From an uncultured Candidatus Saccharibacteria bacterium (GTDB lineage: Bacteria; Patescibacteriota; Minisyncoccia; Phycocordibacterales; UBA9973): DNA of 48,299 nucleotides. The position numbers were made by a program, and so were the translations under genes. This document shows, in pieces, positions 5,563-19,631 of this stretch. The notes below the pieces were generated by a model that was given only the letters and a program-made list of their open reading frames with translations, made no database searches and was not told the DNA's origin. How positions within the stretch are numbered: the first letter of the stretch is position 1; every line of letters starts with the position of its first letter. The stretch covers positions 1-48,299 of the forward strand of contig CAZUCZ010000002.1 of NCBI GenBank assembly GCA_964618925.1, in the 5' to 3' direction.

Positions 5563-6525
5563 TTGTACACAGTGTTTGTTTGTTGGTATACTATATACAT
5601 AGAAAAGTTATATTGGTTAAAACAAAAAAAGGTAATCTTTATAGCCCTTGCGGTGGTGTTTTTGGTTGCACTTTTTCTTTCCAAGAACCAAACACTTTTC
5701 ACAAACAAGAGAGAAGACGGCTTAGTGTACAACGGCAATGAGAAAATAGGGGACCTTGTAAACCGAGACACTGATGGCGACACTGTTCCTGATTGGCAAG
5801 AAGCCTTATATGGCACGAGCCCCACAAAAAAAGACACAAATGATGATGGAATTCCAGACAACGTAGAGATCGCGCGACTCAGTAGCCAAAACATACAAAA
5901 TGGGGAATTAAATCTCAATGGATCAGGGGACCCCAGCGAACCAAATTTAAATGAAACAGATAAATTATCTCGAGAATTATTCTCTACTATGGCAGCACTA
6001 AACCAAGCAGGCACCATAGACCAAAACACCGTAGACACACTCAGTAGTTCTTTGATTAGTAAGATCCAGGATTCAGCCCCTCAAAAAGTATTTTTATATT
6101 CTGACCTAAAAATTTCAAAATCTGATACAAAGCAAGCTGCTAAAGCATATAATGACAATTTAACTAAACTATATACAAAATACCCGATCAAAAATACAGT
6201 TCCAGATGTCCTCGACAAATTCATCGTAGATGAAAATACCGTGGATGAAAGTGTGCTTGTAGAGCTCGACCCGATACTTAAACAATTTAATAATATCCTT
6301 ACTGCGATGTCTGCCCTCGAAGTACCACGAAGTCTGGCGCTTGTTCACCTCGATGTCTTAAATAAGATGCAAAAAGTTTCACAAAACATAAGTGATATTA
6401 GAATGTATGACACAGATATCGTGGTCGCAATGCGTGGCATAACACAATATCAAGCGAACGCAGATGCATTAGACGTTAGCTTGGGGAATCTTGATAAAAT
6501 GATCACCCAAAAATTGAAACAATAA
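5563..6525 (+). CDS. Hypothetical membrane-anchored protein with Asp-rich calcium-binding-type (thrombospondin type 3-like) repeats
   Basis: TM segment VIFIALAVVFLVALFL, then DTDGDTVPDWQE and DTNDDGIPD motifs. The start is uncertain (TTG 5563 or GTG 5572). Confidence 0.6.
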   Translation: MYTVFVCWYTIYIEKLYWLKQKKVIFIALAVVFLVALFLSKNQTLFTNKREDGLVYNGNEKIGDLVNRDTDGDTVPDWQEALYGTSPTKKDTNDDGIPDNVEIARLSSQNIQNGELNLNGSGDPSEPNLNETDKLSRELFSTMAALNQAGTIDQNTVDTLSSSLISKIQDSAPQKVFLYSDLKISKSDTKQAAKAYNDNLTKLYTKYPIKNTVPDVLDKFIVDENTVDESVLVELDPILKQFNNILTAMSALEVPRSLALVHLDVLNKMQKVSQNISDIRMYDTDIVVAMRGITQYQANADALDVSLGNLDKMITQKLKQ

Positions 6526-6543
6526 ATAAAAATATTGTATAAT
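6514..6543 (+). promoter_or_regulatory. Putative sigma70-type promoter TTGAAA-18 nt-TATAAT ahead of the T4SS-like operon
   Basis: ttgaaa at 6514-6519 and tataat at 6538-6543, 20 nt before the ATG at 6564. Confidence 0.4.
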
Positions 6544-6563
6544 TATAAGTACTATATAGAAAA

Positions 6564-8663
6564 ATGACAGCTCGATATAAATTAAAAAATAAAATAATTT
6601 CTCTACTTATAATCAGTGCAATATTTACTCCGGCAGTGTTACTCTCTACCCCTAAAATAATACACGCCCAGACTGACGAAGTTCGAGTCAACGATACAAA
6701 AGCAAACGCTACATTAAAAACAATATCAGCAGCCACAAAAACGAGCAGTACCACAGATACAAAAAGTTGGGCAAGAAGACTCGCGGAGGATGTACTAAAA
6801 GCATTTGCTAGAAAGCTCCTCGCACAGATGACCCAAGCCACCGTCAACTGGATCAATACTGGTTTTCATGGCGCACCATTGTTCGTAGAAAACCCTGGAA
6901 GCTTTTTTAAAGATATTGCAAAATCAGAAATCAAAGACCTGGTCACCATCATCGGATATAATAATTCCAAATTCCCATTTGGAAAATCCACTGCGATTGG
7001 TATCATAGATGACTTCAAAAATAAATTTGCTCAGAATGCACAATATTCACTCAGTAAAGTCACAAATGACCGAGTACTCATAGATAATTTCCAGACTGAC
7101 TTTAATGTAGGTGGCTGGGATGGATTCCTCCTCACTACTCAATTCCCACAGAATAACCCTATTGGTTTCCATATGCTTGTGGCGGAAGAGCTCGCCAAGA
7201 AACTCAAAGATAATGACCCATCAGATACTGACATTATCAAACAAACACTCCAGCAAGGACAAGGCTTTTTGTCTCCACAAATGTGCCCAGCAGACATAAA
7301 CCCAAATTATAATAATTTACAAAATCAATTTAAAAAACCAACATTTAAACCAAAACCATACACAGGATCATTTGATTGTTCGAGCGCAGCTGATGAACAA
7401 GAATATGCATCTTGCATGTATCAAAAAGGACAAGACGAAGAAGCGCAACAAGCAAAAGATTATGCAGAGTGGAGTAAAACTAATACGTGCCTAAAACCTG
7501 ATGGCACGAGCGGACTCGTAAACACAACTCCTGGCTCTGTAGTCGGTGGGCAGATCATTAAAGCCCTCGGTGCATCGACATTTGATTCTACCGTCCTCGC
7601 AGGATCTCTCGGCAACAGCCTCTCTGCGATTTTCGATGCACTCTTAAATAAATTCATGTCTTCTGGATTAAATGCGCTGTCAAACAAAATAAATGGCACC
7701 GGTGGTGGAAATAACACCCCAGATGATTTTAGTTATGATGGACACACACTCGGCACTGACACTACGAACACCACGACGACATCCACAAATAATAATTTTA
7801 ATTGGAATGGACCAGATGAAGTCATCGTCTTAGACAGCTTCAAGCAACAAGTCCAAGCTGCTATCGACGCCGCAAACAAAGAACTTCTCTTGATAGATAA
7901 TGCGGCTCTTTCCACGCCAACCACAAACGCATCTCCGGGAGTATTACAGATGTTCAATAAGATCTGGGGCAAAGAACAAGAGCTTGATATGTGTGTACCA
8001 GGACCAGATATTAATTGGCAAGACAGGGTAGACGGAGAAGTGGAGCGTATCAATAGCAACCTGACTACTTCGATCTATGCAGACCCTGCCACCATAGCTG
8101 CGACCGAAAACGCTACCCGTGCTGCTGCGGAAACATTTAAAAACACAGTGCTTGCAGCCATGAAGGCTGAACTTCCGAGTGCTGCAAGTTATATAAACTC
8201 ATTGAGTGCTATCAAACCGATCAATCAACAAGCAGTGGACCTCACAGAAAGGGAAGGTGTTCTGATAGACAATCTGATCCGTCTTAATGCAATAAACTCT
8301 GAATTAAGCTCTATCAACACCCAGCCAGACCCGGGCACTGATGCTGAGACAAACTTGATACAACTCAAACAGAGATTTAATGCAATGATCCTCGACATAT
8401 CTAGTACTGGCACATTAACCGACACACAAAACAAACTCGCTGATGCAACAGCAAAGTTTAATAACCTATCAGCACTTTCGACTAAATGCACCACAGAACG
8501 CACTGCTAAAGGCTGGAGTATCCCAGGAGGAGCAGAAAGCGCATTTTCACACCTCGACACCGTCACTACAGAAAAATACGCTTTCTGTGATGTATTTATG
8601 AATTTCGGAGCGAACTGCGATACGATATACAGAGCGAATATTACAGACTACAAGAAGAATTAG
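6564..8663 (+). CDS. Large secreted hypothetical protein (699 aa), first gene of the T4SS-like cluster
   Basis: Signal-peptide-like N-terminus (LLIISAIFTPAVLLSTPKIIHAQ). Long uninterrupted ORF. No domain recognised. Confidence 0.7.
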   Translation: MTARYKLKNKIISLLIISAIFTPAVLLSTPKIIHAQTDEVRVNDTKANATLKTISAATKTSSTTDTKSWARRLAEDVLKAFARKLLAQMTQATVNWINTGFHGAPLFVENPGSFFKDIAKSEIKDLVTIIGYNNSKFPFGKSTAIGIIDDFKNKFAQNAQYSLSKVTNDRVLIDNFQTDFNVGGWDGFLLTTQFPQNNPIGFHMLVAEELAKKLKDNDPSDTDIIKQTLQQGQGFLSPQMCPADINPNYNNLQNQFKKPTFKPKPYTGSFDCSSAADEQEYASCMYQKGQDEEAQQAKDYAEWSKTNTCLKPDGTSGLVNTTPGSVVGGQIIKALGASTFDSTVLAGSLGNSLSAIFDALLNKFMSSGLNALSNKINGTGGGNNTPDDFSYDGHTLGTDTTNTTTTSTNNNFNWNGPDEVIVLDSFKQQVQAAIDAANKELLLIDNAALSTPTTNASPGVLQMFNKIWGKEQELDMCVPGPDINWQDRVDGEVERINSNLTTSIYADPATIAATENATRAAAETFKNTVLAAMKAELPSAASYINSLSAIKPINQQAVDLTEREGVLIDNLIRLNAINSELSSINTQPDPGTDAETNLIQLKQRFNAMILDISSTGTLTDTQNKLADATAKFNNLSALSTKCTTERTAKGWSIPGGAESAFSHLDTVTTEKYAFCDVFMNFGANCDTIYRANITDYKKN

Positions 8664-8697
8664 TGTTTGTTTTGTTTTTAAGTTTTTTACCATATAT

Positions 8698-8804
8698 ACC
8701 TGTCCCGTACTAAATTTTTGATTCAATTATATTAAGAAAAATGATTATAAAAGATAAAATTAAATTAATATCAAAAGCTAAAAGTAAAATTTTAGTACTG
8801 GGAT
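8698..8804 (+). repeat. CCCGTA-hairpin repeat, family B, copy 1
   Basis: Left arm acctgtcccgtactaaattttt (8698-) and inverted right arm aaaattttagtactggga (8787-8804). The right arm lies inside the first codons of the 8741 ORF. Confidence 0.7.
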
Positions 8805-11509
8805 TAATACTGATTATACTCGTTGGATTTTTTAGTCCAGAAGTAAAAGTAAGTGCTCAAACCTGGCAACCCGGAGACAGAGCACTATGCACAGTAATGG
8901 TCCCAGACCCCACTTCAAATACTGGTGTATATACATACTATAAAGATTATTTTACATCATATTCTGATTGTAAAAGCTGGGAGGAAAAGTACGTTCCAAA
9001 TACAACACTTCAACGTTACAGAATTAGTTTTGAAAAAAGAGATGGTCATTGTGAAGACACTTCGGGTAATATTTATGAATATGGGCCTATCTCCTGTGCA
9101 TCTACAATATTTAAGACATATAAGTGGGTTAACACTGGGCAAAATAATGATGAAATAGTTTCACCTGGGAGTAATACTTCTGGAGATGCGACCACGGCAG
9201 GAACTTGTTATTATGGAGCAGGTAGTAATGCTGCTAGTCAAGGCATTAAAGCTAAATTTCCAAAAACAAAACAGGAATGTACCAATGATGGCTCAAGTGA
9301 CTGGAAAGAGGGTGACTGGACCAACGGAGGTCAAGATAAAAATGGGCAGACTGCTCCAATAAGTAGTGGCACAGTAAGCACCGGCGCATCTTCAAGCTCT
9401 AGTACTCGTGATTTGTTCGGGCACTGTACATTTGATTCTAATTTTTCTATGGGTGCGTGTATCACGTCTTGGGGATACTATATCTTAGTCACCTTGCCGT
9501 CGTATATATTGTATTTCACTGCATACATGTTCAACATCATGCTGGCACTGACACTCGGCACAGTGCTGTATGATAATAATTTCTTACCTGAAGCATGGAG
9601 AATCGTACGTGATTTTTCAAACATATTCTTTATCCTTGTATTGTTATATATATCTATCAAGATGATTCTCGGGCTCGGTGGCTCTGATATTAAGAAAATG
9701 ATAGTGAATGTTATCATCGCGGCATTACTCATAAACTTCTCTATGTTTTTCACCCAAGTAGTGATCGACTCTTCAAACATCCTCGCTCTTATTTTCTATA
9801 ACAAAATAAATGTTGTATCTGCCAACCCAGCAAGCCCATCTATCAGTGGCACTACTGCAGGGGCTAACACACAATCAGATATCCAAACAGGGGGGAACTA
9901 TAACACTGTAGTAAATGGTGCGGTGAATGGTATCCAAGACAAAGACATAGCCGCGGGTATCGTCACCGGATTCAATCCAGCAAACTTTATTAACCCAAGC
10001 GTCGCACAGAGACTCAACACTAAACTCGAAGAAAAACCTAAGGATGCTGGTTCATTTTATTCGACAGTGGCAGGATGTACCGCTGGCGCAGTCGGGGGTA
10101 TCGTAGGTATACCTATCGGGTGTGTTGTCGGGTATTCACTATATCAAGCAGGCAGTAATTCTACACTGCCATTTGCGATCGCACTTGCCATAGAAGTCAC
10201 AGCGTTTGCGATATACCTCTTTGCTTCGTATGCATTCTTTATGGCTGGTTTTTCATTCATCGGACGATTGATCGAACTCTGGATACTGATCATCTTTTCA
10301 CCGTTTGCATTTATGTCGCTATCTATACCACAGCTCGAAGGTGTGAAATATCTCGGATTCAAAGACTGGAGCGAGCGCCTCATAAAGACTGCATTCATGG
10401 CACCGATATTTATGTTCTTCTTGCTCCTCATCACTAAACTCATCCAAGTAGATATTTTTAGTCCAGTATTAGATACCAAGACGGATACTTCGATACCTCG
10501 CACCCTCATCATTATCGCAATTCCTGCGATTATATATATCAGTATGCTATACAAGGCGACAGAGTATGCCAAGGAAGGCTCTGGAGAATTCGGCAAGGCA
10601 GTTATAAAATATGGAACAATGGCAGCGGGACTCGTCGGCGGACTCGCCCTCACCGCAGCATCAGGCGGGGCATCAATTGCCTTAACAGCTGGACTTGGAT
10701 CCGTAGCGTCAGCTGCAAAAAATAGCCAAGGGTTAAAGGATGCAGCTTCACAAAAAGGATTTCGTGGTGCTGCTGCTAGAATGGCACTCAGAACAGCTGA
10801 TTATGGATCAAAAGCATCCTATGATATAAGAAAAATTCCTGGCATTGGTAACCTTGCAAAAAAAGCTGGAATAAATATGGAAGTAGGAAAAAGCCTTGGA
10901 TTGGGTGCTCTCAGTATGAAAGAAGGTGGTTATGAACAGAGAAGAAAAGAGAGGCAGGAAAAAGACCTTAAGCGTGCAAAACTTCTTGAGGTGTCAGAAG
11001 ATGAACCACTCAAACAAGCACTCAATAAAACAGAGAGTGATCTACAGGAACTCTTAGGTAAAAATGCAAAAGAGATTGAAAGCATAGATAAATTAATAGA
11101 GAAGAAAAAAGATGAAGTTTCCGCAGCAAGCAGTAAATTCAATGCGGCGAAAGGAACGGCAGGAGAGGCTGCGGCTAGAACTGCCCTACAAAACGCAAAC
11201 GAAAATCTAGACAATATCAAAAAAGCTAAAAAAGATTTAGTAACGGGAAGCGCTTATAGTTACACAGATCTACCTGGCACCGGAACAACAACACTTACAG
11301 GAGCTGCAATTTTAGCTGGAACTAAAAGTATTGATGACCTAGAAAAAGATCAGAAAACCCAGAAACAAAATATAAGAAACAGAAATATCACACGAAAGAG
11401 AGACCAAGCAGATAGCATAGAAAATAGATGGTTCTGGGGTAGAACAAATAGAGAAGTAGCACATAAAATAAGAATGGAGGAAAAATTAGATAGTGGAACA
11501 AAACATTAA
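8741..11509 (+). CDS. Polytopic inner-membrane protein, VirB6/TrbL-like, with a Cys-rich extracytoplasmic N-domain and a coiled-coil C-tail
   Basis: 922 aa with a signal/TM segment, a roughly 200-aa Cys-containing domain, at least 6 hydrophobic helices (e.g. IFFILVLLYISIKMILGLGG, IIAALLINFSMFFTQVVI), then a K/E-rich coiled coil. It lies upstream of the PrgI-like and VirB4 genes. The family call is by architecture and context only. Confidence 0.55.
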   Translation: MIIKDKIKLISKAKSKILVLGLILIILVGFFSPEVKVSAQTWQPGDRALCTVMVPDPTSNTGVYTYYKDYFTSYSDCKSWEEKYVPNTTLQRYRISFEKRDGHCEDTSGNIYEYGPISCASTIFKTYKWVNTGQNNDEIVSPGSNTSGDATTAGTCYYGAGSNAASQGIKAKFPKTKQECTNDGSSDWKEGDWTNGGQDKNGQTAPISSGTVSTGASSSSSTRDLFGHCTFDSNFSMGACITSWGYYILVTLPSYILYFTAYMFNIMLALTLGTVLYDNNFLPEAWRIVRDFSNIFFILVLLYISIKMILGLGGSDIKKMIVNVIIAALLINFSMFFTQVVIDSSNILALIFYNKINVVSANPASPSISGTTAGANTQSDIQTGGNYNTVVNGAVNGIQDKDIAAGIVTGFNPANFINPSVAQRLNTKLEEKPKDAGSFYSTVAGCTAGAVGGIVGIPIGCVVGYSLYQAGSNSTLPFAIALAIEVTAFAIYLFASYAFFMAGFSFIGRLIELWILIIFSPFAFMSLSIPQLEGVKYLGFKDWSERLIKTAFMAPIFMFFLLLITKLIQVDIFSPVLDTKTDTSIPRTLIIIAIPAIIYISMLYKATEYAKEGSGEFGKAVIKYGTMAAGLVGGLALTAASGGASIALTAGLGSVASAAKNSQGLKDAASQKGFRGAAARMALRTADYGSKASYDIRKIPGIGNLAKKAGINMEVGKSLGLGALSMKEGGYEQRRKERQEKDLKRAKLLEVSEDEPLKQALNKTESDLQELLGKNAKEIESIDKLIEKKKDEVSAASSKFNAAKGTAGEAAARTALQNANENLDNIKKAKKDLVTGSAYSYTDLPGTGTTTLTGAAILAGTKSIDDLEKDQKTQKQNIRNRNITRKRDQADSIENRWFWGRTNREVAHKIRMEEKLDSGTKH

Positions 11510-11518
11510 GATAAACAT

Positions 11519-12010
11519 ATGACAGAAAAATTAAAACAAAGAAGTCGGGAAGAAATATTGAAACTACCAAAAGAAGCACAGGAAGCTATTAATGCCATAA
11601 ATTGGGCAAATATTTCAGAGGAAATTGGTAAAAAATATCTATCTAACGAAAATGAAATAAATAATTTCCAAGTTGAAACTTTATTAATCTTGACAGGAAT
11701 AGAAGATGCGCAGGACTATGCTTTGAATATAGAAAGAGAGGTGGGTACCAGTAAAACTGAAGCAGAAAAAATAGCGGATGAAGTATTTGAAAAAATATTA
11801 AAACCAATTACCGAAACACTCGAGGATAATATAAAGAAAAACCTAGGAAACAAAAGGACAACACCAATGCAAAATATTGATTTCATATTATCAGGCGGAG
11901 ACTATACAAGCTTTTTAGATACACCAGGCAGAGCAAATGAAACAGAAACCACGGATAAAATTCTAGGTACATCAAATATCCTCGAAGTGAAGGATAGACT
12001 CATTAATTAG
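11519..12010 (+). CDS. Hypothetical helical protein, paralog of the next gene
   Basis: 163 aa. Shares an N-terminal pattern LP.E...AI.A..W......ET.L.L.G...Y with ORF 12038..12850. Confidence 0.6.
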   Translation: MTEKLKQRSREEILKLPKEAQEAINAINWANISEEIGKKYLSNENEINNFQVETLLILTGIEDAQDYALNIEREVGTSKTEAEKIADEVFEKILKPITETLEDNIKKNLGNKRTTPMQNIDFILSGGDYTSFLDTPGRANETETTDKILGTSNILEVKDRLIN

Positions 12011-12865: not shown

Positions 12866-13291
12866 ATGCAATTTAAAGTTCCACAATTTTTAGAAATAGA
12901 AGATAAGATTTTTGGACCCTTTACCTTTCGGGAGTTCGTGTATTTAGCCGGCGGCGCAGGGATGTGTTTTGTCGTGTATAAGTTACTTGGGCTCGTCTTG
13001 GGTGCGATACCAATACTCTTGATAGGAGGGTTTGCTGGTATGCTTACATTTTATCGCCCAAACAACAAACCTTTTCTCGACATGCTCGAAGCTGGTTTTA
13101 AATATGGCACACAAAGCAAACTCTATATCTGGAAACGACGCCAAATAAAATCCACCGACAAAAAGACGCCAAGTGGAGCGGAGAATAAAGACATGCTGCT
13201 ACAAGAAAACGGTATGCGCCTCACCGGCAATAAATTACGAGATTTGGCGTGGAGTTTAGATGTGCTTGATTTGAAAAAAGAAGGAAACTAG
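12866..13291 (+). CDS. PrgI-family / VirB3-like small membrane protein
   Basis: The N-terminus QFKVPQFLEIEDKIFGPFTFREFVYL followed by two TM helices is the pattern I associate with PrgI-family proteins of Gram-positive conjugation systems. It lies immediately upstream of VirB4. Confidence 0.65.
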   Translation: MQFKVPQFLEIEDKIFGPFTFREFVYLAGGAGMCFVVYKLLGLVLGAIPILLIGGFAGMLTFYRPNNKPFLDMLEAGFKYGTQSKLYIWKRRQIKSTDKKTPSGAENKDMLLQENGMRLTGNKLRDLAWSLDVLDLKKEGN

Positions 13292-13368: not shown

Positions 13369-14007
13369 ATGGCATTAAATGCAAAAGCAACACAAGAATT
13401 CGTACCGATAAAAGAAGTACGCGATGGAGTAATCGTGCTTAAAGATGGCGGCTTGCGAGCGATTGTCCTCGCAAATTCTGTAAACCTATCCCTAAAATCT
13501 GAAGACGAGCAGAAGGCAACGATAATTCAATTCCAAAATTTCTTAAATACCCTTGATTTTGCAATACAAATCTCAGTGCAATCACGCAGGCTTGATATTA
13601 GACCATATCTACTGCTCCTCGAGAATAGAATCAAAACCCAAAATGAACCACTGTTAAAAATTCAGACAAAAGAATACATAGAATTCATCAGGAGTTTTAC
13701 CGAATCTGTAAACATTATGACGAAAAGTTTCTTTGTGGTCGTACCATACACCCATACCGTACTCAAATCAGACACTGGATTCTTCCAAAAAATATTCAAA
13801 CGCCAAAGCAAGGAAGAAAAAGCAACACTCAAAGAAGAAGATTTTGAAGAAAAGCGTTCACAGCTCGAAGAGAGAGTAGGCGTCATCCAGCAAGGACTCG
13901 CACGCTGTGGTATAAAATCAGCAGCCCTCGGCACAGAAGAAGTGGTAGAAGTGTTCTACAAAGTCTTTAATCCGGGAGAAGTAGAAGGTAAAATAAGAAT
14001 TGAATAA
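13369..14007 (+). CDS. VirB4 N-terminal-domain fragment (separate ORF or interrupted gene)
   Basis: EFVPIKEVRDGVIVLKDGGLRAIV..NLSLKSEDEQ..IIQFQNFLNTLDFAIQISVQS resembles the first roughly 200 aa of Firmicutes-type VirB4 (Tn916 Orf16 / ConE-like). It is in the same frame as 14011..15864, separated only by TAA TAT. Confidence 0.55.
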   Translation: MALNAKATQEFVPIKEVRDGVIVLKDGGLRAIVLANSVNLSLKSEDEQKATIIQFQNFLNTLDFAIQISVQSRRLDIRPYLLLLENRIKTQNEPLLKIQTKEYIEFIRSFTESVNIMTKSFFVVVPYTHTVLKSDTGFFQKIFKRQSKEEKATLKEEDFEEKRSQLEERVGVIQQGLARCGIKSAALGTEEVVEVFYKVFNPGEVEGKIRIE

Positions 14008-14010
14008 TAT

Positions 14011-15864
14011 ATGGACTTTTTTAAAAAATTATTTGGTGGAAAAAGTAATAGTGCAAACCAAGGAGCTGAGATGAAGGCATCTATTATGTCTGTATTGCCA
14101 GGGGAGATATACACTTCGGCAAATATCGAACTCCAAGACATCATCGCTCCGTCTGCACTAAAAATAGAATCCAAATCCATAAACCTCGGAGAAAAAATAG
14201 CACGTACTTTTTTCATCATATCGTATCCTCGGTTTCTAACTGATAATTGGTTTTCACCAATCATCAACCTCGACAAGGTGTTTGATATCTCGATCTTCGT
14301 CCACCCGATAGATACATCACTCGCACTCAGACAATTCCAAAAAAAGGTTGCTGAGGTGCAAAGTCAGATCAGTGTGCGAGAGCGAAAAGGTATGGTCCGT
14401 GACCCGATGCTCGACACTGCATACCAAGACCTCGAAAGTCTACGTGATAGCCTTATCCAAGCACAGGAAAAAATGTTTGATATGGGCATATATATCACTA
14501 TATATGCCGATGATGAGATGGAGCTCTTCCGTATTGAAAATGAAATAAAATCAATGCTTGAATCACGTTTGATCTATATAAAACCAGCATTATTCCAACA
14601 AGAAGAAGGTTTTAAGAGTATTATCCCTATCAATACAGACCTCTTAAACATCCACCAAAAATTAAATTCAGAACCACTCTCGAGTACATTTCCATTTGTA
14701 TCATTTGACCTTACTTCAGATACAGGAATACTCTATGGTATCAATAGACATAATTCGAGTTTGGTAATCTTTGATAGATTCTCTCTTGAAAACTACAATT
14801 CAGTAACTTTTGCAAAATCCGGCTCAGGAAAATCGTATGCAACCAAACTAGAAATATTAAGGTCCCTCATGTTTGATGTAGATGTGATGGTAATCGACCC
14901 TGAAAAAGAATACGAATTCTTGTCTGAAGCGGTAGGGGGGAGATATTTTAATATTTCATTGTCATCCGAACACCACATGAACCCATTTGATCTACCGATG
15001 CCTCGCGAAGACGAGACTGCCGAAGACGTCCTTAGATCAAACATCATCAACTTGGTCGGACTATTTAGGCTCATGCTCGGTGGACTTACTCCAGAAGAAG
15101 ATTCGATTGTCGATCGTGCTATTTCAGAAACATACGCGATGAAAGACATCACACCTGAGTCTGATTTCTCAAATATTGAACCACCATTACTCTCTGATTT
15201 TGAAATGGTACTTTCGGGAATGGAAGGCTCGGATTCTATCATCTCTAGACTTTCTAAGTACACGAGGGGTTCATGGTCTACATTCCTAAACAGACCAAGT
15301 AACGTGGACATTAATAAAAAGTTCGTTGTATTTTCTATTCGAGACATGGAAGACGAACTCAAACCTGTGGCAATGTATATCATCATGCACTATATCTGGA
15401 ACGCTATTCGTAAAAACCTAAAGAAACGCTTGCTTGTGGTAGATGAGGCATGGTGGATGATGAAATCAGAAGATACTGCATCATTCTTGTACTCTATCGC
15501 AAAACGCGGTAGAAAATACTATCTCGGTCTTGCAACCATCACCCAAGATGCTGCAGACTTTATGAAGTCACCATATGGAGTACCGATCGTTACCAACTCT
15601 TCTATTCAGATGCTTTTAAAGCAATCACCAACCACCATCGACATCCTCCAAAAGACCTTCAACCTTACAGATGAAGAAAAATACCTACTGCTTGAGTCAG
15701 GAGTCGGAGAAGGGATATTCTTTGCAGGACTCAAACACGTGGCGATAAAGATAGTGGCTTCGTACACCGAAGACCAGATCATCACCTCAGACCCTTCACA
15801 GATACTCTTAAACAGAAAGGAAAAAGAAGACTACGAAGCAATGGTAAAGAAAGCCAAACTCTAA
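14011..15864 (+). CDS. virB4: Type IV secretion ATPase, VirB4 family (middle and ATPase domains)
   Basis: IIAPSALKIE...SYPRFL motif, Walker A FAKSGSGKSYATK, Walker B LLVVDEAWWMM, and the RKYYLGLATITQD motif. Confidence 0.85.
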   Translation: MDFFKKLFGGKSNSANQGAEMKASIMSVLPGEIYTSANIELQDIIAPSALKIESKSINLGEKIARTFFIISYPRFLTDNWFSPIINLDKVFDISIFVHPIDTSLALRQFQKKVAEVQSQISVRERKGMVRDPMLDTAYQDLESLRDSLIQAQEKMFDMGIYITIYADDEMELFRIENEIKSMLESRLIYIKPALFQQEEGFKSIIPINTDLLNIHQKLNSEPLSSTFPFVSFDLTSDTGILYGINRHNSSLVIFDRFSLENYNSVTFAKSGSGKSYATKLEILRSLMFDVDVMVIDPEKEYEFLSEAVGGRYFNISLSSEHHMNPFDLPMPREDETAEDVLRSNIINLVGLFRLMLGGLTPEEDSIVDRAISETYAMKDITPESDFSNIEPPLLSDFEMVLSGMEGSDSIISRLSKYTRGSWSTFLNRPSNVDINKKFVVFSIRDMEDELKPVAMYIIMHYIWNAIRKNLKKRLLVVDEAWWMMKSEDTASFLYSIAKRGRKYYLGLATITQDAADFMKSPYGVPIVTNSSIQMLLKQSPTTIDILQKTFNLTDEEKYLLLESGVGEGIFFAGLKHVAIKIVASYTEDQIITSDPSQILLNRKEKEDYEAMVKKAKL

Positions 15865-15879: not shown

Positions 15880-15923
15880 GGTGCAAAAGAGGGGAAGGGC
15901 TTTGTAGAAGTTTCGCTACAGGG

Positions 15924-15929
15924 TATAAT
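15924..15929 (+). promoter_or_regulatory. -10 box TATAAT 7 nt upstream of the ATG at 15937
   Basis: gggtataattaatactATG. Confidence 0.35.
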
Positions 15930-15936
15930 TAATACT

Positions 15937-16926
15937 ATGAATAGAGGACGTACATCTTTAATACTCTTTTTTGTTATCTGTGCACTATTGGTCAGTGCAC
16001 CTATCAAAATTTACGCGGTATCTCCGAGCTCTATTAACGTAGATATAGCTCCAATAAACCCAAACCCAGGTGAAAATACTACGATCACACTCAGTAGTTA
16101 TGCCACAAACCTAGATACGGTAAATATTTCTTGGTTTGTAAATGGCAAGAAAACTTCCGCCGATACTGGAATGAAATCTTTTAGTATCGTGGCACCGAGC
16201 GCAGGCACTGAAACCACGGTCAGAGCTGTCGTATCCATGACTGACGGAGACATAGAGAAAAAGATAGTGATACGCCCATCTACACTGGTACTACTCTGGC
16301 AAGCCATAGATTCATATGTACCTCCTTTTTATAAAGGAAAGGCATTACCCACTCCTGATAGTCAAATCAAAGTAGTAGCTATGCCTGAAGCAAAAAATAA
16401 AACAGGTTTGGTAAACCCTAAAAATCTTATCTACACCTGGAAGAAAAATTACAGTAATGATGCTACAAGCTCTGGATATGGTAAAAATGCACTTACTTTT
16501 GTGAATGATTATTTGGAAGATTTAGATACCATCAGCGTAAATGCAGCAACTACTGATGGACAATACTCTTCAAATGCAAGTATTAATATTACTGCCTCAG
16601 ATCCAAAAATATCTTTTTATAAAAACGATCCTGCACTAGGAATACTCTGGAACCAGGCGCTCCATAATGGACATAAAATACAAGGTGATGAGATCATCGT
16701 CGGAGAACCATATTTTATTTCACCTAAAAATTTAACAAGCAATAACCTGATATGGAATTGGTTTATAAACAATAATCTGACAAATAATACCTTAAATTAC
16801 AGGAAAAATTGGCTACCAATAAAGATAGAAGGGGGAGTGACCGGCACATCAAACATAGGTCTACAGATAGAAAATCAAGCAGAGCTCCTCGGCAATGTAA
16901 GTAATTCAATCAATGTGGAATTTTAA
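15937..16926 (+). CDS. Secreted hypothetical protein, beta-rich (329 aa)
   Basis: The ATG at 15937 gives MNRGRTSLILFFVICALLVSAPIKIYA, a signal peptide. The track start at 15871 is TTG inside the upstream terminator. Confidence 0.65.
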   Translation: MNRGRTSLILFFVICALLVSAPIKIYAVSPSSINVDIAPINPNPGENTTITLSSYATNLDTVNISWFVNGKKTSADTGMKSFSIVAPSAGTETTVRAVVSMTDGDIEKKIVIRPSTLVLLWQAIDSYVPPFYKGKALPTPDSQIKVVAMPEAKNKTGLVNPKNLIYTWKKNYSNDATSSGYGKNALTFVNDYLEDLDTISVNAATTDGQYSSNASINITASDPKISFYKNDPALGILWNQALHNGHKIQGDEIIVGEPYFISPKNLTSNNLIWNWFINNNLTNNTLNYRKNWLPIKIEGGVTGTSNIGLQIENQAELLGNVSNSINVEF

Positions 16927-16927
16927 A

Positions 16928-17000
16928 ACCTGTCCCGTATTAAATTTTTGATTAAAGCAAATGACCATTATAAATAACAACTTAAAATTTTAGTACTGGG
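16928..17000 (+). repeat. CCCGTA-hairpin repeat, family B, copy 2
   Basis: acctgtcccgtattaaatttttgatt ... aaaattttagtactggg directly abutting the ATG at 17001. The interior resembles copy 1. Confidence 0.7.
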
Positions 17001-18161
17001 ATGAAAAAACTTTTATCTCATATATTTATTTTTATCTCAATCGTTGCAGTATGTAATGGTTCATTACAGGTATATGCAGCACCTGGTGATATAGACTGTA
17101 GTCTACCTTCAAACCAAAATAATATAGAATGTCTTACCCCGGTACAATCATCGACAACAGCCGAACAAAGAGCGATAGATGCCCAGCAGCAAGCGCAAGA
17201 ATTATTACGAGTCAGTGAAGCAGCAAAAAATGGGAAATTAGCTGGTGAAAATACAGTAGGAGATGGAAGCTATCATCTCCTCCAACCCCTCCCTTGTAAA
17301 GACGGAGAGGAAGGATGTGTAAATGGGAAACTTACATCTTTTAACCCTGCAGAGAGTGGTAAACTCGGAGAATATTTAAACTTTGGTATTAGATTGTTTA
17401 TTGGGTTATGTGCAGTAGCGGCAGTGGTAATGATTGTAGTAGGTGGTATTGAGTATGCAACCAGTGAGTTAAGTCATAGTAAGACTGCAGCGAAAGATAG
17501 GATATATAATGCGATCTTTGGGTTATTGCTTGCTCTGGGATCATATACGATCTTGTATACGGTAAATCCTGACTTGCTGAAGACTGATTTTGATGTGGGT
17601 GGGGGGACGCTGACGAGTAGTGGGGAGATATCAATAAAAGAGTTAGAAGAAAGAATTATTACCGTTGGAGGTCCAATTACTGATAAAAACCGAGGTAGCA
17701 TTGGTACTCCTTGTGATGCTAATGTCATTTTTAACGCAGCACAATCTGCTGGTCGTACTTTAACTAAAGAACAGGCAGCTGCTATGGGATGTATCGGTGG
17801 AGCTGAATCTGGGGGGTGTAAAAATGTACAAGCTAATGTCACAGGAGTAACTAGTAGTGCTTCTGGTCCATTTCAAATTTTAGGATCAAATAGAACAAGA
17901 CTTGGTAACACCACAGCCTGTAAAAACAATCCAAGTAGTCTTGAATGCAATGCTACAATAGCTGCAGGATTATTACTAAGACAAACAAATTATCGAGACT
18001 GGCTAGATACTCAATACCCATGTAGTAATGCAAAATGTGTGATTAGATTTGATCCTCAGAAGGTAGATAGAGGAGTACAACTTCCAGAGTGGGTAAAGGT
18101 TGGTAAAAACTGGGTAAAAACAGACAGGAAAAGAAATCCTTATACAGGTTGTGGTTTGTAA
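17001..18161 (+). CDS. Pilin-like (VirB2/TrbC-type two-TM module) protein fused to a C-terminal lytic-transglycosylase-like domain
   Basis: Signal peptide, then LLQPLPC...FGIRLFIGLCAVAAVVMIVVGGI (TM1), a charged loop, and AIFGLLLALGSYTILYTV (TM2). The C-terminal part has GGAESGG...SASGPFQI, resembling the SLT catalytic E-S and G-x-x-Q-I motifs. Confidence 0.6.
   Translation: MKKLLSHIFIFISIVAVCNGSLQVYAAPGDIDCSLPSNQNNIECLTPVQSSTTAEQRAIDAQQQAQELLRVSEAAKNGKLAGENTVGDGSYHLLQPLPCKDGEEGCVNGKLTSFNPAESGKLGEYLNFGIRLFIGLCAVAAVVMIVVGGIEYATSELSHSKTAAKDRIYNAIFGLLLALGSYTILYTVNPDLLKTDFDVGGGTLTSSGEISIKELEERIITVGGPITDKNRGSIGTPCDANVIFNAAQSAGRTLTKEQAAAMGCIGGAESGGCKNVQANVTGVTSSASGPFQILGSNRTRLGNTTACKNNPSSLECNATIAAGLLLRQTNYRDWLDTQYPCSNAKCVIRFDPQKVDRGVQLPEWVKVGKNWVKTDRKRNPYTGCGL
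17277..17612 (+). repeat. 336-bp inverted repeat, copy 1 (pilin module); partner at 32121..32456
   Basis: Manual alignment to the reverse complement of 32121..32456. Positions 17277-17533 are identical (257 nt). Six mismatches lie in the last 79 nt, all synonymous. Confidence 0.95.
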
Positions 18162-18191
18162 TACTTAAAATAAGTATTAATAGATAAGCAA

Positions 18192-18200
18192 TGATATAAT
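18192..18200 (+). promoter_or_regulatory. Extended -10 (TGaTATAAT) 9 nt upstream of the ATG at 18210
   Basis: atgatataatatatcatacATG. Confidence 0.4.
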
Positions 18201-18209
18201 ATATCATAC

Positions 18210-19631
18210 ATGTCGAAAAGAAATTTTATACTTTTAATAATCATTTTGAGTATAGTCCTCGTAGGACTACTTGGTTATTTTTATATGAGTAGAAATACTC
18301 CAACAGGAGACAGCGCAATCCCTGGAGTAAATTTCCTTTCACAATTCAACCCTTTTAAAAGTAATGTAAATACAGACACAGGGAGCGAAAACCCTGGGGC
18401 AGGTGATACTGGTGGTGACCAACCCGGAGAAAACGGAGAAACCCCAATCACCACCCTCCACAAAGTCTCGAATATGCCTATCGCTGGCTTTATCGTCTAC
18501 CCCAAAGAAAGATTGAAAGAAATACCACCAGAAGATACAACGACAGGAGGAGAGAGCAACGTCACCACGACCCCAGTAGAAGAAATACCGAATGATAGTG
18601 CTACATCGAGTTCACGCACGACAGTCGCAGCAGATCTAAAGAAAAAGTTACTCGTCACAAAAAAGCCAATTGTTCCAGACACAGAGTTTGTCACCGCTGT
18701 AAGATATGCAGATCGTGCGAGTGGAAATATCTATCAGTCATTTGCAGACAAGATCCAAGAACACAAGTTCTCGGGAACAGTGATCCCTAAAATATACGAT
18801 GCGTATTTTGGCAATAATGCGAATGCCGTCTTAATGCGACATCTTAAAATAGACAATGTAACTATCGAGACTTTCTTAGGCACACTACCTAAAGAAAAAT
18901 TAGGAGATGACACAACCACAATAGCTGAAATGAAAGGGGGCTTTTTAACTAACAATATACAAGATGTTAGTGTTTCACCTGACGGATTAAAGGTGTTTTA
19001 TCTCTCTCCTGTAGGAGACGGGGTAATAGGCACAATACAAAATCTAATAGATGGTAAAAAGAATCAAATATTTAACAATGCATTTACCGAATGGAATTCA
19101 TGGTGGCCAAATAATAATGTCATTACACTTACCACCAAGCCTTCTTTTGGAACACTCGGCTATATGTATATGATCGATATCGCAAAGAAAAGCTTTACGA
19201 AAGTACTCGGCGACATTAATGGACTCACCACACAAATGAGCCCAAATGGTAAGCTCGTGCTTGTAGGCACCAATGATTTATCCCTCTACGTATATCATGT
19301 CGACACAAAGACCTACGACAAATTAGGTGTAAAAACACTCCCAGAAAAATGCACTTGGAATAAGGTAAGTGACACTGTATATTGTGCAGTCCCAAGCACT
19401 ATCGAGACTGCAAACTATCCAGATGATTGGTATCGTGGAGAAATATCGTTCTCTGATCAGATTTGGAAAATCAATCTTCAAGATGGAAGTACAACACTGA
19501 TCGCAGATCCACTTGTGATCTCAGGCGGGGAGGACACTGATGGTATCCAACTTGCAGTCGACACAAACGAAGATTACTTATTCTTCATAAATAAAAAAGA
19601 CTCCTTTTTATGGGAGCTTGAATTAAAATAA
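18210..19631 (+). CDS. Membrane-anchored hypothetical protein with a low-complexity linker and beta-propeller-type (PD40/TolB-like) repeats
   Basis: N-terminal TM segment ILLIIILSIVLVGLLGYFY and a G/T/P-rich linker. Repeats such as VSPDGLKVFYLS and MSPNGKLVLVGT are present. Confidence 0.65.
   Translation: MSKRNFILLIIILSIVLVGLLGYFYMSRNTPTGDSAIPGVNFLSQFNPFKSNVNTDTGSENPGAGDTGGDQPGENGETPITTLHKVSNMPIAGFIVYPKERLKEIPPEDTTTGGESNVTTTPVEEIPNDSATSSSRTTVAADLKKKLLVTKKPIVPDTEFVTAVRYADRASGNIYQSFADKIQEHKFSGTVIPKIYDAYFGNNANAVLMRHLKIDNVTIETFLGTLPKEKLGDDTTTIAEMKGGFLTNNIQDVSVSPDGLKVFYLSPVGDGVIGTIQNLIDGKKNQIFNNAFTEWNSWWPNNNVITLTTKPSFGTLGYMYMIDIAKKSFTKVLGDINGLTTQMSPNGKLVLVGTNDLSLYVYHVDTKTYDKLGVKTLPEKCTWNKVSDTVYCAVPSTIETANYPDDWYRGEISFSDQIWKINLQDGSTTLIADPLVISGGEDTDGIQLAVDTNEDYLFFINKKDSFLWELELK

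What the first reader, a model, noticed from the sequence alone, without database searches (positions are those of the whole stretch)
6514..19631. Origin-proximal Gram-positive-type T4SS-like module with no relaxase or coupling protein and five uncharacterised partner proteins
**What the sequence shows.** Ten co-oriented genes run from a TTGAAA-18-TATAAT promoter at 6514 to the convergent jag gene. The order is:
- a 699-aa secreted protein
- a 922-aa VirB6/TrbL-like polytopic protein
- two paralogous helical proteins
- a PrgI/VirB3-like protein
- VirB4, as two in-frame ORFs
- a 329-aa secreted protein
- a pilin-like protein fused to a lytic transglycosylase
- a 473-aa membrane-anchored beta-propeller-type protein

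**Comparison with known systems.** The recognisable parts (VirB3-like, VirB4, VirB6-like, cell-wall hydrolase) form the minimal core of Firmicutes conjugation machines such as Tn916 Orf17/16/15/14, ICEBs1 ConD/ConE/ConG/CwlT and pCF10 PrgI/J/H/K. Three things separate this cluster from an ordinary conjugative element:
- No relaxase, VirD4-type coupling ATPase, integrase, oriT-like repeat or tRNA/att boundary is visible in the window.
- The cluster sits between housekeeping genes (rsmA on one side, jag-yidC-rnpA-rpmH-dnaA on the other).
- About half of its coding capacity has no recognisable domain.

**Inference.** This may be a domesticated, non-conjugative envelope machine of an ultrasmall CPR-type cell, serving host attachment, DNA or nutrient uptake, or effector delivery. 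The unknown proteins would be lineage-specific structural parts.
Basis: partly seen in the sequence, partly recalled or inferred. Interest (0 to 1): 0.8.

Follow-up and report, generated by a model that had tools for sequence, protein, structure and literature searches.

The report
Known Patescibacteria type IV secretion cluster

Summary
The ten co-oriented genes exist as described. An eleventh conserved gene (5563-6525) sits upstream. Profile searches confirm PrgI/VirB3, a VirB4 of the monoderm CD1110/MPF_FATA type, and a VirB2-like pilin module fused to a probable lysozyme-like domain. They give only weak support for a VirB6-like and a TolB-like beta-propeller protein.

The "split VirB4" is two real genes, a TrsD-like VirB4 N-domain protein and the ATPase. 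They are never fused in 78 related loci and share a frame in only 23, so the frame match here is chance.

The whole block, from UvrD-RsmA through the T4SS genes to Jag-YidC-RnpA-RpmH|DnaA-DnaN, is syntenic in 80 species-level Paceibacteria genomes. VirB4 is more conserved than DnaA in 55 of 55 loci. No relaxase, coupling protein, integrase or att-type boundary lies in the window. The cluster is vertically inherited, not an ICE.

All of this matches Quinonero-Coronel et al. 2025 and Wang et al. 2023, so the finding is real and well interpreted but already known.

New details:
- The protein after VirB4 is a membrane-anchored triple Ig-like protein, not VirB8.
- The enzyme domain behind the pilin module is swapped between species.
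- A near-identical pilin module is duplicated 14.5 kb away.
- An ultra-conserved promoter/leader cassette drives two cluster genes.

The parts
5563..6525 (+). Conserved upstream gene (about 300 aa): N-terminal TM anchor, thrombospondin-type-3-like Ca-binding repeat, then a further region of unknown fold. Probable eleventh member of the cluster.
   Evidence: Syntenic in 36-38 related loci, abutting or overlapping gene 1 in the distant ones. One TM segment. Weak TSP3-type hits to CglD and MtsD at residues 67-107.
6514..6543 (+). Sigma-70-like promoter TTGAAA-18-TATAAT in front of gene 1.
   Evidence: 11/12 match, best in the region. TTGAAT-17-TATAAT at the same position in about 10 close relatives.
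6564..8663 (+). 699-aa secreted protein, family restricted to Paceibacteria, no known domain. C-terminal 280 aa form a confident long helical bundle.
   Evidence: Signal-type N-terminus. 282 homologues, all 'hypothetical' with no Pfam domain. AF2 mean pLDDT 69, above 90 for residues 420-699. No PDB fold match at E <= 1e-3.
8741..11509 (+). 922-aa polytopic membrane protein, candidate VirB6 analogue: signal/TM segment, about 200-aa Cys-rich ectodomain, at least 7 TM segments, long charged C-terminal tail.
   Evidence: Topology. 6/32 family members hit NF045848 MMCAP2_0566 conjugal transfer protein (best 9.6e-6) and 2/32 hit the Mbov_0396 ICE TM protein. hhalign to pGO1 TrsL (TrbL family) 58% probability, E 1e-4. 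No Pfam TrbL. PrgH comparison negative.
11519..12010 (+). 163-aa cytoplasmic protein, paralogue of the next gene, no known domain.
   Evidence: BLASTP E 4e-7 to the next gene. No TM segment. No consistent Pfam hit in 35 family members.
12038..12850 (+). 270-aa cytoplasmic protein, paralogue of the previous gene, no known domain.
   Evidence: Found in 53 related loci.
12866..13291 (+). PrgI/VirB3-like small membrane protein.
   Evidence: Pfam PrgI 1e-8, 36 bits against a cut-off of 27. Found in 77 of 80 loci.
13369..14007 (+). TrsD-like protein: a stand-alone homologue of the VirB4 N-terminal domain.
   Evidence: NCBIfam VirB4_plasma positions 102-236, 2.8e-10; CD1110 VirB4 positions 2-125, 7.6e-6; TrsD NF041427 positions 15-198/201, 2.8e-6. 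Never fused to VirB4 in 78 loci: 54 in another frame, 23 in the same frame, 1 on the opposite strand.
14011..15864 (+). VirB4 ATPase (CD1110/MPF_FATA type) lacking the N-terminal domain. Walker A (GSGKS) and Walker B (LLVVDEAW) are intact.
   Evidence: NF045971 370 bits against a cut-off of 325, model positions 183-733 of 752. P-loop_TraG 1e-24. 74-93% identical to thousands of Paceibacterota proteins. Motifs read from the translation.
15937..16926 (+). 329-aa membrane-anchored surface protein with three tandem Ig/FnIII-like beta-sandwich domains.
   Evidence: Homologues are about 328 aa. AF2 mean pLDDT 84.7. Foldseek top hits are Hoc, SiiE and FnIII/Ig arrays at 4e-7 and weaker. The model has no NTF2-type alpha+beta domain, so it is not VirB8-like.
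17001..18161 (+). VirB2-like pilin module fused to a probable lysozyme/lytic-transglycosylase-like domain.
   Evidence: T4SS_pilin 2.9e-6, above the cut-off, and SLT_3 E 0.024. In relatives 29/32 hit T4SS_pilin and 7/32 hit TrbC/VirB2. The C-terminal domain differs between species.
18210..19631 (+). 473-aa membrane-anchored protein with a probable TolB/PD40-like beta-propeller.
   Evidence: TM at residues 6-24. hhalign to E. coli TolB residues 243-392, 42% probability, E 2.6e-4. PDB profile hit to TolB at 0.09. PD40 in 2/32 members.
8697..8804 (+). Inverted-repeat promoter/leader cassette, long form. The start codon of the 922-aa gene lies between the arms, and the second arm encodes part of its signal peptide.
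16928..17003 (+). Inverted-repeat promoter/leader cassette, short form, ending exactly at the ATG of the pilin-hydrolase gene.
   Evidence: The same cassette precedes diverse housekeeping genes in at least 120 metagenome loci.
31566..32684 (-). Dispersed paralogue: a near-identical VirB2-like pilin module fused to NlpC/P60, next to a PilB-type ATPase. Probably the second cell-wall enzyme of the system.
   Evidence: Pfam NLPC_P60 4.5e-13 and T4SS_pilin 7.3e-6. 89% protein identity over 138 aa to 17001-18161. 381-nt, 95% inverted DNA repeat. Clusters with the proteins at the post-VirB4 pilin position of 12 relatives.

Best explanation
This is the chromosomally fixed, vertically inherited type IV secretion system of the class Paceibacteria (Patescibacteria/CPR). 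It derives from the conjugation machinery of monoderm bacteria (MPF_FATA type) and is no longer part of a mobile element.

Shown:
- The cluster encodes a VirB4 ATPase whose N-terminal domain is a separate TrsD-like protein.
- It encodes a PrgI/VirB3 membrane partner.
- It encodes a large polytopic candidate VirB6.
- It encodes a VirB2-like pilin module carrying a cell-wall enzyme.
- It encodes six further lineage-specific proteins: four extracytoplasmic (a TSP3-repeat anchor protein, a 699-aa helical secreted protein, a triple-Ig protein and a TolB-like propeller) and two cytoplasmic paralogues.
- All of these are kept in the same order between rsmA and jag-yidC-rnpA-rpmH|dnaA in 80 species.

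Inferred mechanism:
- VirB4 with TrsD docks on PrgI and the VirB6-like protein in the cytoplasmic membrane and powers assembly of a VirB2-type filament or conduit.
- The pilin-anchored peptidoglycan enzymes open the wall, either the cell's own or the host's.
- The Ig-like, propeller and helical proteins form the extracellular part that replaces the VirB8 and adhesin components of classical Gram-positive systems.
- The machine mediates contact-dependent transfer of macromolecules between the epibiont and its host, not conjugation.

The substrate and the direction of transfer are not determined.
For: -
- The split VirB4 is a fixed two-gene state, and the two halves tile one VirB4 model, positions 2-125 and 183-733 of NF045971.
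- Taxon: the best VirB4 hits are Paceibacterota, Nomurabacteria and Minisyncoccia MAGs.
- Synteny holds in 80 species-level loci, housekeeping flanks included.
- Median identity across loci is VirB4 84%, DnaA 78%, TrsD-like 73% and PrgI 58%. VirB4 exceeds DnaA in 55/55 loci.
- No mobility genes, tRNA or att-type boundary, and even G+C.
- Two cluster genes are preceded by the same promoter/leader cassette that precedes rnpA here and ribosomal-protein, secY, dnaB, ftsA and clpP-type genes elsewhere. This argues for housekeeping-type expression.
- Literature: PMC12102498 describes the same system, components and genomic context. PMC10633639 shows the Saccharimonadia counterpart is essential for epibiotic growth. 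bioRxiv 10.64898/2026.06.21.733656 reports tubular structures, possibly T4SS pili, at a parasite-host interface.
Against: - The VirB6 assignment is weak: no Pfam TrbL in 32 members and a negative PrgH comparison.
- No VirB8-like component was found. The obvious candidate has an Ig-like fold.
- A coupling protein or an unrecognised relaxase could be encoded elsewhere in the genome. Only 48 kb is available, and PMC12102498 finds VirD4 homologues in most Patescibacteria genomes.
- No expression, localisation or substrate data exist for this organism.
- The roles given to the six lineage-specific proteins rest only on co-location, conservation and predicted topology.
Confidence: 0.85

Rival explanations
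1. An ordinary integrative conjugative element, or a recent remnant of one, that happens to lie near the origin. Its relaxase, coupling protein and integrase would lie outside the window.
For: The core genes are homologous to those of Gram-positive conjugative elements. The gene order VirB3-TrsD-VirB4-...-hydrolase mirrors the pGO1 trs operon.
Against: The cluster sits at the same position with the same housekeeping flanks in 80 species-level genomes. VirB4 is more conserved than DnaA. There are no mobility genes, tRNA or att-type repeats and no G+C anomaly. PMC12102498 finds relaxases in only 103 of 3,035 genomes.
Confidence: 0.03
2. The machine works inwards. It would be a Ced/ComB-like importer that takes up host DNA, RNA or other macromolecules to feed a cell that cannot make nucleotides.
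For: No relaxase or T4CP in the window. A weak VirB4 resemblance to the archaeal DNA-import ATPase CedB (1.2e-9, 37 bits). PMC12102498 proposes import. The 2026 preprint 10.64898/2026.06.21.733656 reports feeding on host RNA and links VirB4 to macromolecule transfer.
Against: The CedB score is far below its cut-off of 700 bits, and the best match is the conjugative CD1110 family. No nuclease or nucleic-acid-binding domain lies in the cluster. Direction cannot be read from sequence.
Confidence: 0.3
3. The machine works outwards. It would export or display protein effectors, above all the pilin-anchored peptidoglycan enzymes, which would act on the host wall rather than on the cell's own wall.
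For: The enzyme domain behind the conserved pilin module is swapped between species: NlpC/P60, YkuD, Amidase_5, VanY, CHAP and M15. It falls into at least 11 unrelated clusters plus 12 singletons that do not follow VirB4 relatedness. The window holds two such proteins with a 95%-identical pilin module. This architecture resembles polymorphic effectors. Wang et al. (PMC10633639) suggest protein export.
Against: Gram-positive T4SSs also need their own wall hydrolase (PrgK, TrsG, CwlT), so action on the cell's own wall is the simpler reading. No variable immunity gene follows, because the next gene is the conserved propeller. YkuD is a synthetic enzyme, not a lytic one.
Confidence: 0.3
4. The two VirB4 ORFs are a pseudogene, a sequencing error or a programmed read-through of one gene.
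For: They are in frame and separated only by TAA-TAT. Together they tile one VirB4 model.
Against: In 78 related loci they are never fused. 54 are in different frames with gaps from -83 to +497 nt, and one pair is on opposite strands. VirB4 homologues are uniformly about 615 aa. TrsD as a separate gene is the norm (PMC12102498).
Confidence: 0.01

Closest known systems
Patescibacteria-clade T4SS (Quinonero-Coronel et al. 2025, PMC12102498; Southlakia epibionticum SEML1_0006-0019, Wang et al. 2023, PMC10633639)
   Same: MPF_FATA-type VirB4, adjacent TrsD homologue, PrgI/VirB3, candidate VirB6 and VirB2-like pilin. Wall enzymes lie downstream of virB4. No relaxase or T4CP in the cluster. The location next to dnaA, dnaN, rnpA, rpmH and ksgA is explicitly reported for Paceibacteria.
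   Different: Nothing essential. This locus has one pilin module in the cluster plus a dispersed near-identical copy, rather than the tandem array of divergent pilins of Saccharimonadia. The accessory proteins are not named in those papers; two were modelled and one compared by profile here.
Staphylococcal pGO1/pSK41 trs conjugation operon (MPF_FATA subclass with TrsD)
   Same: The order VirB3-like (TrsC), TrsD, VirB4 (TrsE), membrane protein, wall hydrolase (TrsG). A pilin-like TrsB and a TrbL-family TrsL are present. The NCBIfam TrsD model matches the 212-aa protein nearly end to end.
   Different: pGO1 has the T4CP TrsK, relaxases, topoisomerase, SSB and oriT on a plasmid. Direct profile comparison with pGO1 TrsD is only marginal (E 0.007, 5% probability). 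TrsG carries CHAP in one protein without a pilin module.
Enterococcal pCF10 Prg/Pcf system
   Same: PrgI family protein followed by a CD1110-family VirB4 (PrgJ) and a wall hydrolase (PrgK).
   Different: PrgJ is one 796-aa protein. PrgH gives no significant match to the 922-aa protein and PrgF none to the helical paralogues. No PrgL/PrgD-type VirB8 fold was found; the Ig-like protein modelled after VirB4 lacks it. LPXTG adhesins, PcfC and PcfG are absent here.
Mycoplasma ICE transfer genes (Mbov_0395 pilin-like, Mbov_0396/MMCAP2_0566 polytopic protein, Mbov_0397 VirB4)
   Same: The only named families that give hits to three neighbouring components: the TrsD-like protein at 2.8e-10, VirB4 at 260 bits, the polytopic protein in 6/32 and 2/32 members, and the pilin module at 0.012.
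   Different: All scores are below the family cut-offs. Mycoplasma ICEs are mobile, with a DDE transposase and a T4CP, and their hosts lack a cell wall.
Archaeal Ced DNA-import system
   Same: A VirB4-family ATPase used for a non-conjugative, possibly inward, transfer. No relaxase.
   Different: The CedB model scores 37 bits against a cut-off of 700. No family search returned a CedA-type protein. The resemblance is in concept only.

Membership tests
Patescibacteria-clade T4SS (MPF_FATA-derived) | VirB4 that groups with Patescibacteria VirB4s inside the monoderm MPF_FATA class | tested here: met
   Top 120 of more than 8,000 hits are Paceibacterota, Nomurabacteria or Patescibacteria proteins at 86-93% identity. 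The best curated model is the CD1110-family VirB4, above its cut-off. PrgJ of pCF10 carries the same family name. No phylogenetic tree was built.
Patescibacteria-clade T4SS (MPF_FATA-derived) | TrsD homologue next to virB4 | tested here: met
   NF041427 TrsD 2.8e-6 over model positions 15-198/201, plus VirB4 N-domain hits. Adjacent in 80/80 loci. The score is below the curated cut-off of 200 bits.
Patescibacteria-clade T4SS (MPF_FATA-derived) | PrgI/VirB3 homologue near virB4 | tested here: met
   Pfam PrgI 36 bits against a cut-off of 27.
Patescibacteria-clade T4SS (MPF_FATA-derived) | VirB6-like polytopic protein near virB4 | tested here: inconclusive
   Topology fits. Weak hits to Mycoplasma ICE polytopic families and to TrsL. 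No Pfam TrbL. PrgH comparison negative.
Patescibacteria-clade T4SS (MPF_FATA-derived) | VirB2-like pilin near virB4 | tested here: met
   PF18895 27.7 bits against a cut-off of 26.6. 29/32 relatives hit PF18895 and 7/32 hit TrbC/VirB2.
Patescibacteria-clade T4SS (MPF_FATA-derived) | No relaxase associated with the cluster; chromosomal location near dnaA in Paceibacteria | tested here: met
   No relaxase, T4CP or integrase domains in the window. dnaA lies 2.2 kb from the last gene. The same holds in relatives. The rest of the genome could not be searched.
Integrative conjugative element / conjugative MPF_FATA system | Relaxase and type IV coupling protein | tested here: not met
   None in 48 kb. 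Genome-wide absence is not testable here.
Integrative conjugative element / conjugative MPF_FATA system | Integrase/excisionase and att or tRNA boundary; variable presence among related genomes | tested here: not met
   No integrase. The only tRNA is 19 kb away. No flanking repeats. The cluster is at the same site in 80 species.
VirB8/TcpC/PrgL-like T4SS component (for the 329-aa protein after VirB4) | N-terminal TM followed by NTF2-like alpha+beta domain(s) | tested here: not met
   The AF2 model (mean pLDDT 84.7) has a TM helix and three all-beta sandwiches. Foldseek returns Ig/FnIII arrays.
VirB1-type T4SS wall hydrolase (PrgK/TrsG/CwlT) | Lysozyme/SLT domain and/or CHAP-NlpC/P60 domain in a membrane-anchored protein of the cluster | tested here: inconclusive
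   SLT_3 only E 0.024, with ES and GPFQI motifs. No PDB sequence match. A clear NlpC/P60 domain lies on the dispersed paralogue and on the proteins at the same cluster position in relatives.
TolB/PD40-type beta-propeller (for the 473-aa protein) | Repeated PD40-like blades forming a propeller | tested here: inconclusive
   hhalign to the TolB propeller 42% probability, E 2.6e-4 over 146 columns. Weak PDB and Pfam hits.

The most novel reading that the evidence does not exclude
The VirB2-like pilin module may be a conserved trafficking/anchor and recombination handle for a polymorphic set of peptidoglycan-active enzymes. These would be displayed or delivered by the T4SS onto the host cell wall.

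Under this reading:
- Species-to-species swapping of the enzyme domain reflects adaptation to different host walls. The observed domains include NlpC/P60, amidase, VanY/M15, YkuD, CHAP and lysozyme-like.
- The 95%-identical duplicated module in this genome is the trace of cassette exchange.
- The Ig-like, propeller and helical proteins form a lineage-specific extracellular apparatus unlike any characterised T4SS.
Probability: 0.25. Interest if true: 0.6.

Novelty: already known. Interest (0 to 1): 0.25.

Why it matters
The Patescibacteria T4SS is one of the few molecular handles on how ultrasmall, biosynthetically crippled bacteria live on other cells. In the one species tested it is essential for epibiotic growth, yet its substrate and direction of transfer are unknown. 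This window adds nothing to the existence or context of the system.

It does offer some concrete leads:
- VirB4 is under stronger constraint than DnaA.
- The missing VirB8 is not the neighbouring gene, which is an Ig-like surface protein.
- The wall-enzyme domain fused to the pilin module behaves like an exchangeable cassette.
- At least two transcription units of the cluster use the same ultra-conserved promoter/leader cassette as core housekeeping genes.

Tried and rejected
- **VirB4 pseudogene or read-through.** Rejected by frame and gap statistics in 78 loci.
- **The 329-aa protein as the VirB8/TcpC analogue.** Rejected, because its fold is three Ig-like domains.
- **The 922-aa protein against Pfam TrbL and against PrgH.** No support. 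Only weak NCBIfam and TrsL links.
- **The TrsD-like protein against single pGO1 TrsD and TrsE sequences by hhalign.** Marginal or negative. The curated TrsD and VirB4 HMMs were needed.
- **Profile searches of the TrsD-like, 922-aa, 473-aa, 329-aa and 699-aa families against PDB sequences.** Nothing significant.
- **The 699-aa protein model.** The N-terminal half has low confidence, and no fold match reaches E <= 1e-3.
- **The helical paralogues against PrgF, DUF5663 and Pfam.** Nothing.
- **C-terminal domain of the pilin fusion against PDB sequences.** Nothing.
- **Promoter cassette as a structured RNA.** The arms pair, but the energies are not better than shuffles (z -0.7 to -2.0). There is no Rfam family. 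The arms are nearly invariant, so covariation cannot be tested.
- **Literature search for the cassette.** Nothing found.

Full report
**1. Observation**

The + strand carries ten consecutive ORFs, at 6564-8663, 8741-11509, 11519-12010, 12038-12850, 12866-13291, 13369-14007, 14011-15864, 15871/15937-16926, 17001-18161 and 18210-19631. They are followed by convergent jag, yidC, yidD and rnpA, then rpmH (21572-21724, -) and divergent dnaA-dnaN. Upstream lie uvrD and rsmA/ksgA.

The stated TTGAAA-18-TATAAT is at 6514-6543 and is the best match in the region. The number of promoter-like sites overall is no higher than in shuffles. A TTGAAT-17-TATAAT sits at the same place in about ten close relatives.

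It has an N-terminal membrane anchor and a thrombospondin-type-3-like Ca-binding repeat. It is probably an eleventh member of the cluster.

**2. Family assignments**

- *PrgI* passes Pfam's threshold (36 against 27 bits).
- *The 617-aa protein* passes NCBIfam's threshold for the CD1110 family of VirB4 ATPases (370 against 325 bits). It aligns only to model positions 183-733 of 752.
- *The 212-aa protein upstream* aligns to positions 2-125 of the same model, to the N-terminal part of the Mycoplasma ICE VirB4 model (2.8e-10), and almost end to end to the TrsD model (2.8e-6).
- *The frame match is chance.* In 78 related loci the two genes are never fused. They are in different frames in 54, in the same frame in 23 (the one-third expected by chance) and on opposite strands in one. 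VirB4 homologues are uniformly about 615 aa. This is the TrsD-plus-VirB4 arrangement reported as the commonest T4SS feature of Patescibacteria (PMC12102498).
- *The 386-aa protein* has a T4SS_pilin (VirB2-like) module just above threshold. Its C-terminal domain matches SLT_3 only at E 0.024, but it has ES and GPFQI motifs typical of lytic transglycosylases (sequence; motif knowledge from memory).
- *The 922-aa protein* is polytopic: a signal/TM segment, a Cys-rich ectodomain, at least 7 TM segments and a charged tail. It gives no Pfam TrbL hit in any of 32 family members and no match to PrgH. Six of 32 members hit the MMCAP2_0566 conjugal-transfer family, two hit the Mbov_0396 ICE membrane protein, and the family profile aligns to the start of pGO1 TrsL, a TrbL-family protein, at 58% probability. 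'VirB6-like' is plausible but not established.
- *The 163- and 270-aa proteins* are paralogues (E 4e-7), are cytoplasmic by hydropathy, and match nothing.
- *The 473-aa protein* has an N-terminal anchor and aligns weakly to the TolB propeller (42% probability, E 2.6e-4).

**3. Origin and inheritance**

VirB4 finds more than 8,000 relatives. The best are 86-93% identical and, where named, come from Paceibacterota, Nomurabacteria or Minisyncoccia MAGs.

A scan of one genome per species returned 80 loci. In essentially all of them the order is uvrD - rsmA - 5563-gene - ten genes - jag - yidC - yidD - rnpA | dnaA - dnaN - PBP1, as far as the contigs reach.

Median identities to the window proteins are:

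| Protein | Median identity |
|---|---|
| VirB4 | 84% |
| DnaA | 78% |
| TrsD-like | 73% |
| DnaN | 67% |
| YidC | 63% |
| PrgI | 58% |
| Pilin fusion | 44% |
| Propeller | 42% |
| Ig-like protein | 36% |
| Polytopic protein | 32% |
| 699-aa protein | 29% |

VirB4 is more conserved than DnaA in all 55 loci that hold both.

The window has no relaxase, coupling ATPase or integrase domain. It has no nearby tRNA, no flanking direct repeats and no compositional break. This is a vertically inherited chromosomal system under strong purifying selection, not an ICE.

**4. Comparison with the literature**

Quinonero-Coronel et al. 2025 (PMC12102498) report the following:
- a monophyletic Patescibacteria VirB4 clade nested in MPF_FATA;
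- associated TrsD, PrgI/VirB3, VirB6 and VirB2-like genes;
- rare VirB8 and VirB1;
- relaxases in only 103 of 3,035 genomes;
- T4CP homologues that are common but usually far from virB4;
- for Paceibacteria and Microgenomatia, proximity to dnaA, dnaN, rnpA, ksgA and rpmH, which they interpret as a gene-dosage effect.

Wang et al. 2023 (PMC10633639) showed by Tn-seq that the Saccharimonadia counterpart (SEML1_0006-0019) is essential for epibiotic growth. They noted its pilins and its lack of recognisable coupling and relaxase proteins. A 2025 review treats these systems as a recognised T4SS type (PMC12857230). A 2026 preprint reports possible T4SS pili at a parasite-host interface and feeding on host RNA.

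The finding is correct and already known.

**5. What was added here**

*(a) The protein after VirB4 is not VirB8.* By position and size it was the best candidate for the missing VirB8/TcpC component. Its model has a TM helix followed by three Ig/FnIII-like sandwiches (mean pLDDT 84.7), and its fold matches are Hoc, SiiE and similar arrays. It is not an NTF2-fold protein.

*(b) The 699-aa secreted protein remains unassigned.* It has a confidently predicted long C-terminal helical bundle and no significant fold match.

*(c) The enzyme domain behind the pilin module is swapped between species.*
- At the post-VirB4 pilin position the pilin module is conserved (29/32 relatives), but the enzyme domain differs: NlpC/P60, YkuD, Amidase_5, VanY, CHAP and M15.
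- Across 69 species it falls into at least 11 mutually unrelated clusters plus 12 singletons, and these do not follow VirB4 relatedness.
- The window has a second such protein (31566-32684, -; NlpC/P60) beside a PilB-type ATPase.
- The pilin modules of the two proteins are almost identical: 89% over 138 aa at protein level, and a 381-nt inverted repeat at 95% at DNA level.
- The NlpC/P60 domain of the second protein clusters with the proteins that occupy the cluster position in 12 relatives.
- This looks like cassette exchange through the conserved pilin module. The two window proteins together supply the lysozyme-like and NlpC/P60 activities that PrgK/TrsG/CwlT-type hydrolases combine in one chain (family knowledge).
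- Whether these enzymes act on the cell's own wall or on the host's wall is open. The second possibility is the most novel reading I cannot exclude.

**6. Mechanism**

Shown: the parts list, their topology, their conservation and their chromosomal fixation.

Inferred from what is established for VirB4, VirB3, VirB6, VirB2 and VirB1 in other T4SSs:
- VirB4 with its detached N-domain docks on PrgI and the polytopic protein, and energises assembly of a VirB2-type structure.
- Pilin-anchored enzymes open peptidoglycan.
- The Ig-like, propeller, helical and TSP3-repeat proteins build the extracellular part.

The substrate and the direction of transfer cannot be decided from sequence. The options are import of host nucleic acids, export of proteins, or attachment only. 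I rate import and export about equally, and conjugation as very unlikely.

**7. Side observation bearing on expression**

- A bipartite inverted-repeat element, TGTCCCGTACTAAATTT ... AAATTTTAGTACTGGGAT, encloses a -35/-10-like sequence. It occurs upstream of the 922-aa gene, the pilin-fusion gene and rnpA, and partially upstream of yidC. The counts are far above chance.
- In the short form the second arm ends exactly at the ATG. In the long form the ATG lies between the arms and the second arm encodes SKILVLGL of the signal peptide.
- Exact copies occur in at least 120 metagenome contigs. In 81 of 82 matches found in the 80 contigs held, the next base completes an ATG that opens an ORF. By their N-terminal sequences (read by eye, no profile search) these ORFs look like unrelated housekeeping genes such as rodA, dnaB, ribosomal proteins, ddl, ftsA, serS, clpP and secY.
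- The arms are almost invariant.
- The cluster is therefore probably transcribed in at least three units, two of them from the lineage's standard housekeeping-type cassette. What the cassette is remains unexplained.

**8. Verdict**

The novelty rating is 'already known', and interest is low to moderate, carried by the details in sections 5 and 7.

Noticed in passing
window 8697-8804 (+), 16928-17003 (+), 21552-21477 (-); partial copy 20955-20939 (-): An ultra-conserved bipartite inverted-repeat cassette, TGTCCCGTACTAAATTT - promoter-like spacer - AAATTTTAGTACTGGGAT(G). In the short form it ends exactly at a start codon. Exact copies occur in at least 120 metagenome contigs, and 81 of 82 matches examined are followed by an ORF. 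By their N-termini these look like unrelated housekeeping genes (rodA, dnaB, ribosomal proteins, ddl, ftsA, serS, clpP, secY). There is no Rfam family, and the RNA fold is not significant. It could be an operator pair, a leader RNA or a mobile promoter module.
   Followed up: partly
window 8741-8810, and L041 12950-13037, L011 6113-6207, L003 5872-5965: In the long form of the cassette the start codon lies between the arms, so non-orthologous secreted proteins share an element-encoded N-terminus. The window's 922-aa protein begins MIIKDKIKLISKAKSKILVLGL. The pilin-fusion protein of L041 begins MIIKDENKLRLRTTSKILVLGF.
   Followed up: partly
window 17258-17638 and 32095-32475: A 381-nt inverted repeat at 95% identity encodes a near-identical VirB2-like pilin module in two proteins with different enzyme domains (lysozyme-like and NlpC/P60). 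The arms bracket 14.5 kb that contains rnpA, rpmH, dnaA, dnaN and the presumed origin, so recombination between them would invert the origin region.
   Followed up: partly
L001-L080, gene after the Ig-like protein (the position of window 17001-18161): The domain behind the conserved pilin module is exchanged between species: NlpC/P60, YkuD, Amidase_5, VanY, CHAP, M15 and unknown types. It forms at least 11 unrelated clusters plus 12 singletons in 69 species, not following VirB4 relatedness. This architecture resembles polymorphic effectors.
   Followed up: partly
window 4249-4356, 44325-44432, 47912-48019: A 108-nt intergenic repeat family (80-94% identity) has terminal inverted repeats AAACTTTTAG...TTAAAAGTTT and a predicted long hairpin with an internal CCG-GTA-CGG-T-run stem. 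It lies after uvrD, before uvrC and after the SpoU methylase gene. There is no Rfam match. It may be MITE-like or a terminator/promoter module.
   Followed up: partly
window 14011-15864 against 21885-23231, and L001-L080: VirB4 is more conserved than the replication initiator DnaA in all 55 related loci that hold both. Median identity to the window protein is 84% for VirB4 and 78% for DnaA.
   Followed up: yes
window 31566-34398 (-): The dispersed pilin-NlpC/P60 gene lies directly next to a PilB/GspE-type ATPase (T2SSE, 1.4e-116). This hints at a physical or regulatory link between the type IV pilus genes and the T4SS pilin-enzyme proteins.
   Followed up: no
window 21-1862 (+), 1885-2190 (+), 45739-47436 (+): Two large ORFs (613 and 565 aa) have no recognisable domain. 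A DUF5663 protein lies between the first of them and the uvrD gene. None of the three is in the conserved T4SS block.
   Followed up: no
window 5169-6038 (-): A 289-aa antisense ORF overlaps the conserved 5563-6525 gene. Its weak tblastn hits in relatives lie on the opposite strand of that gene, so it is most likely a shadow ORF.
   Followed up: partly
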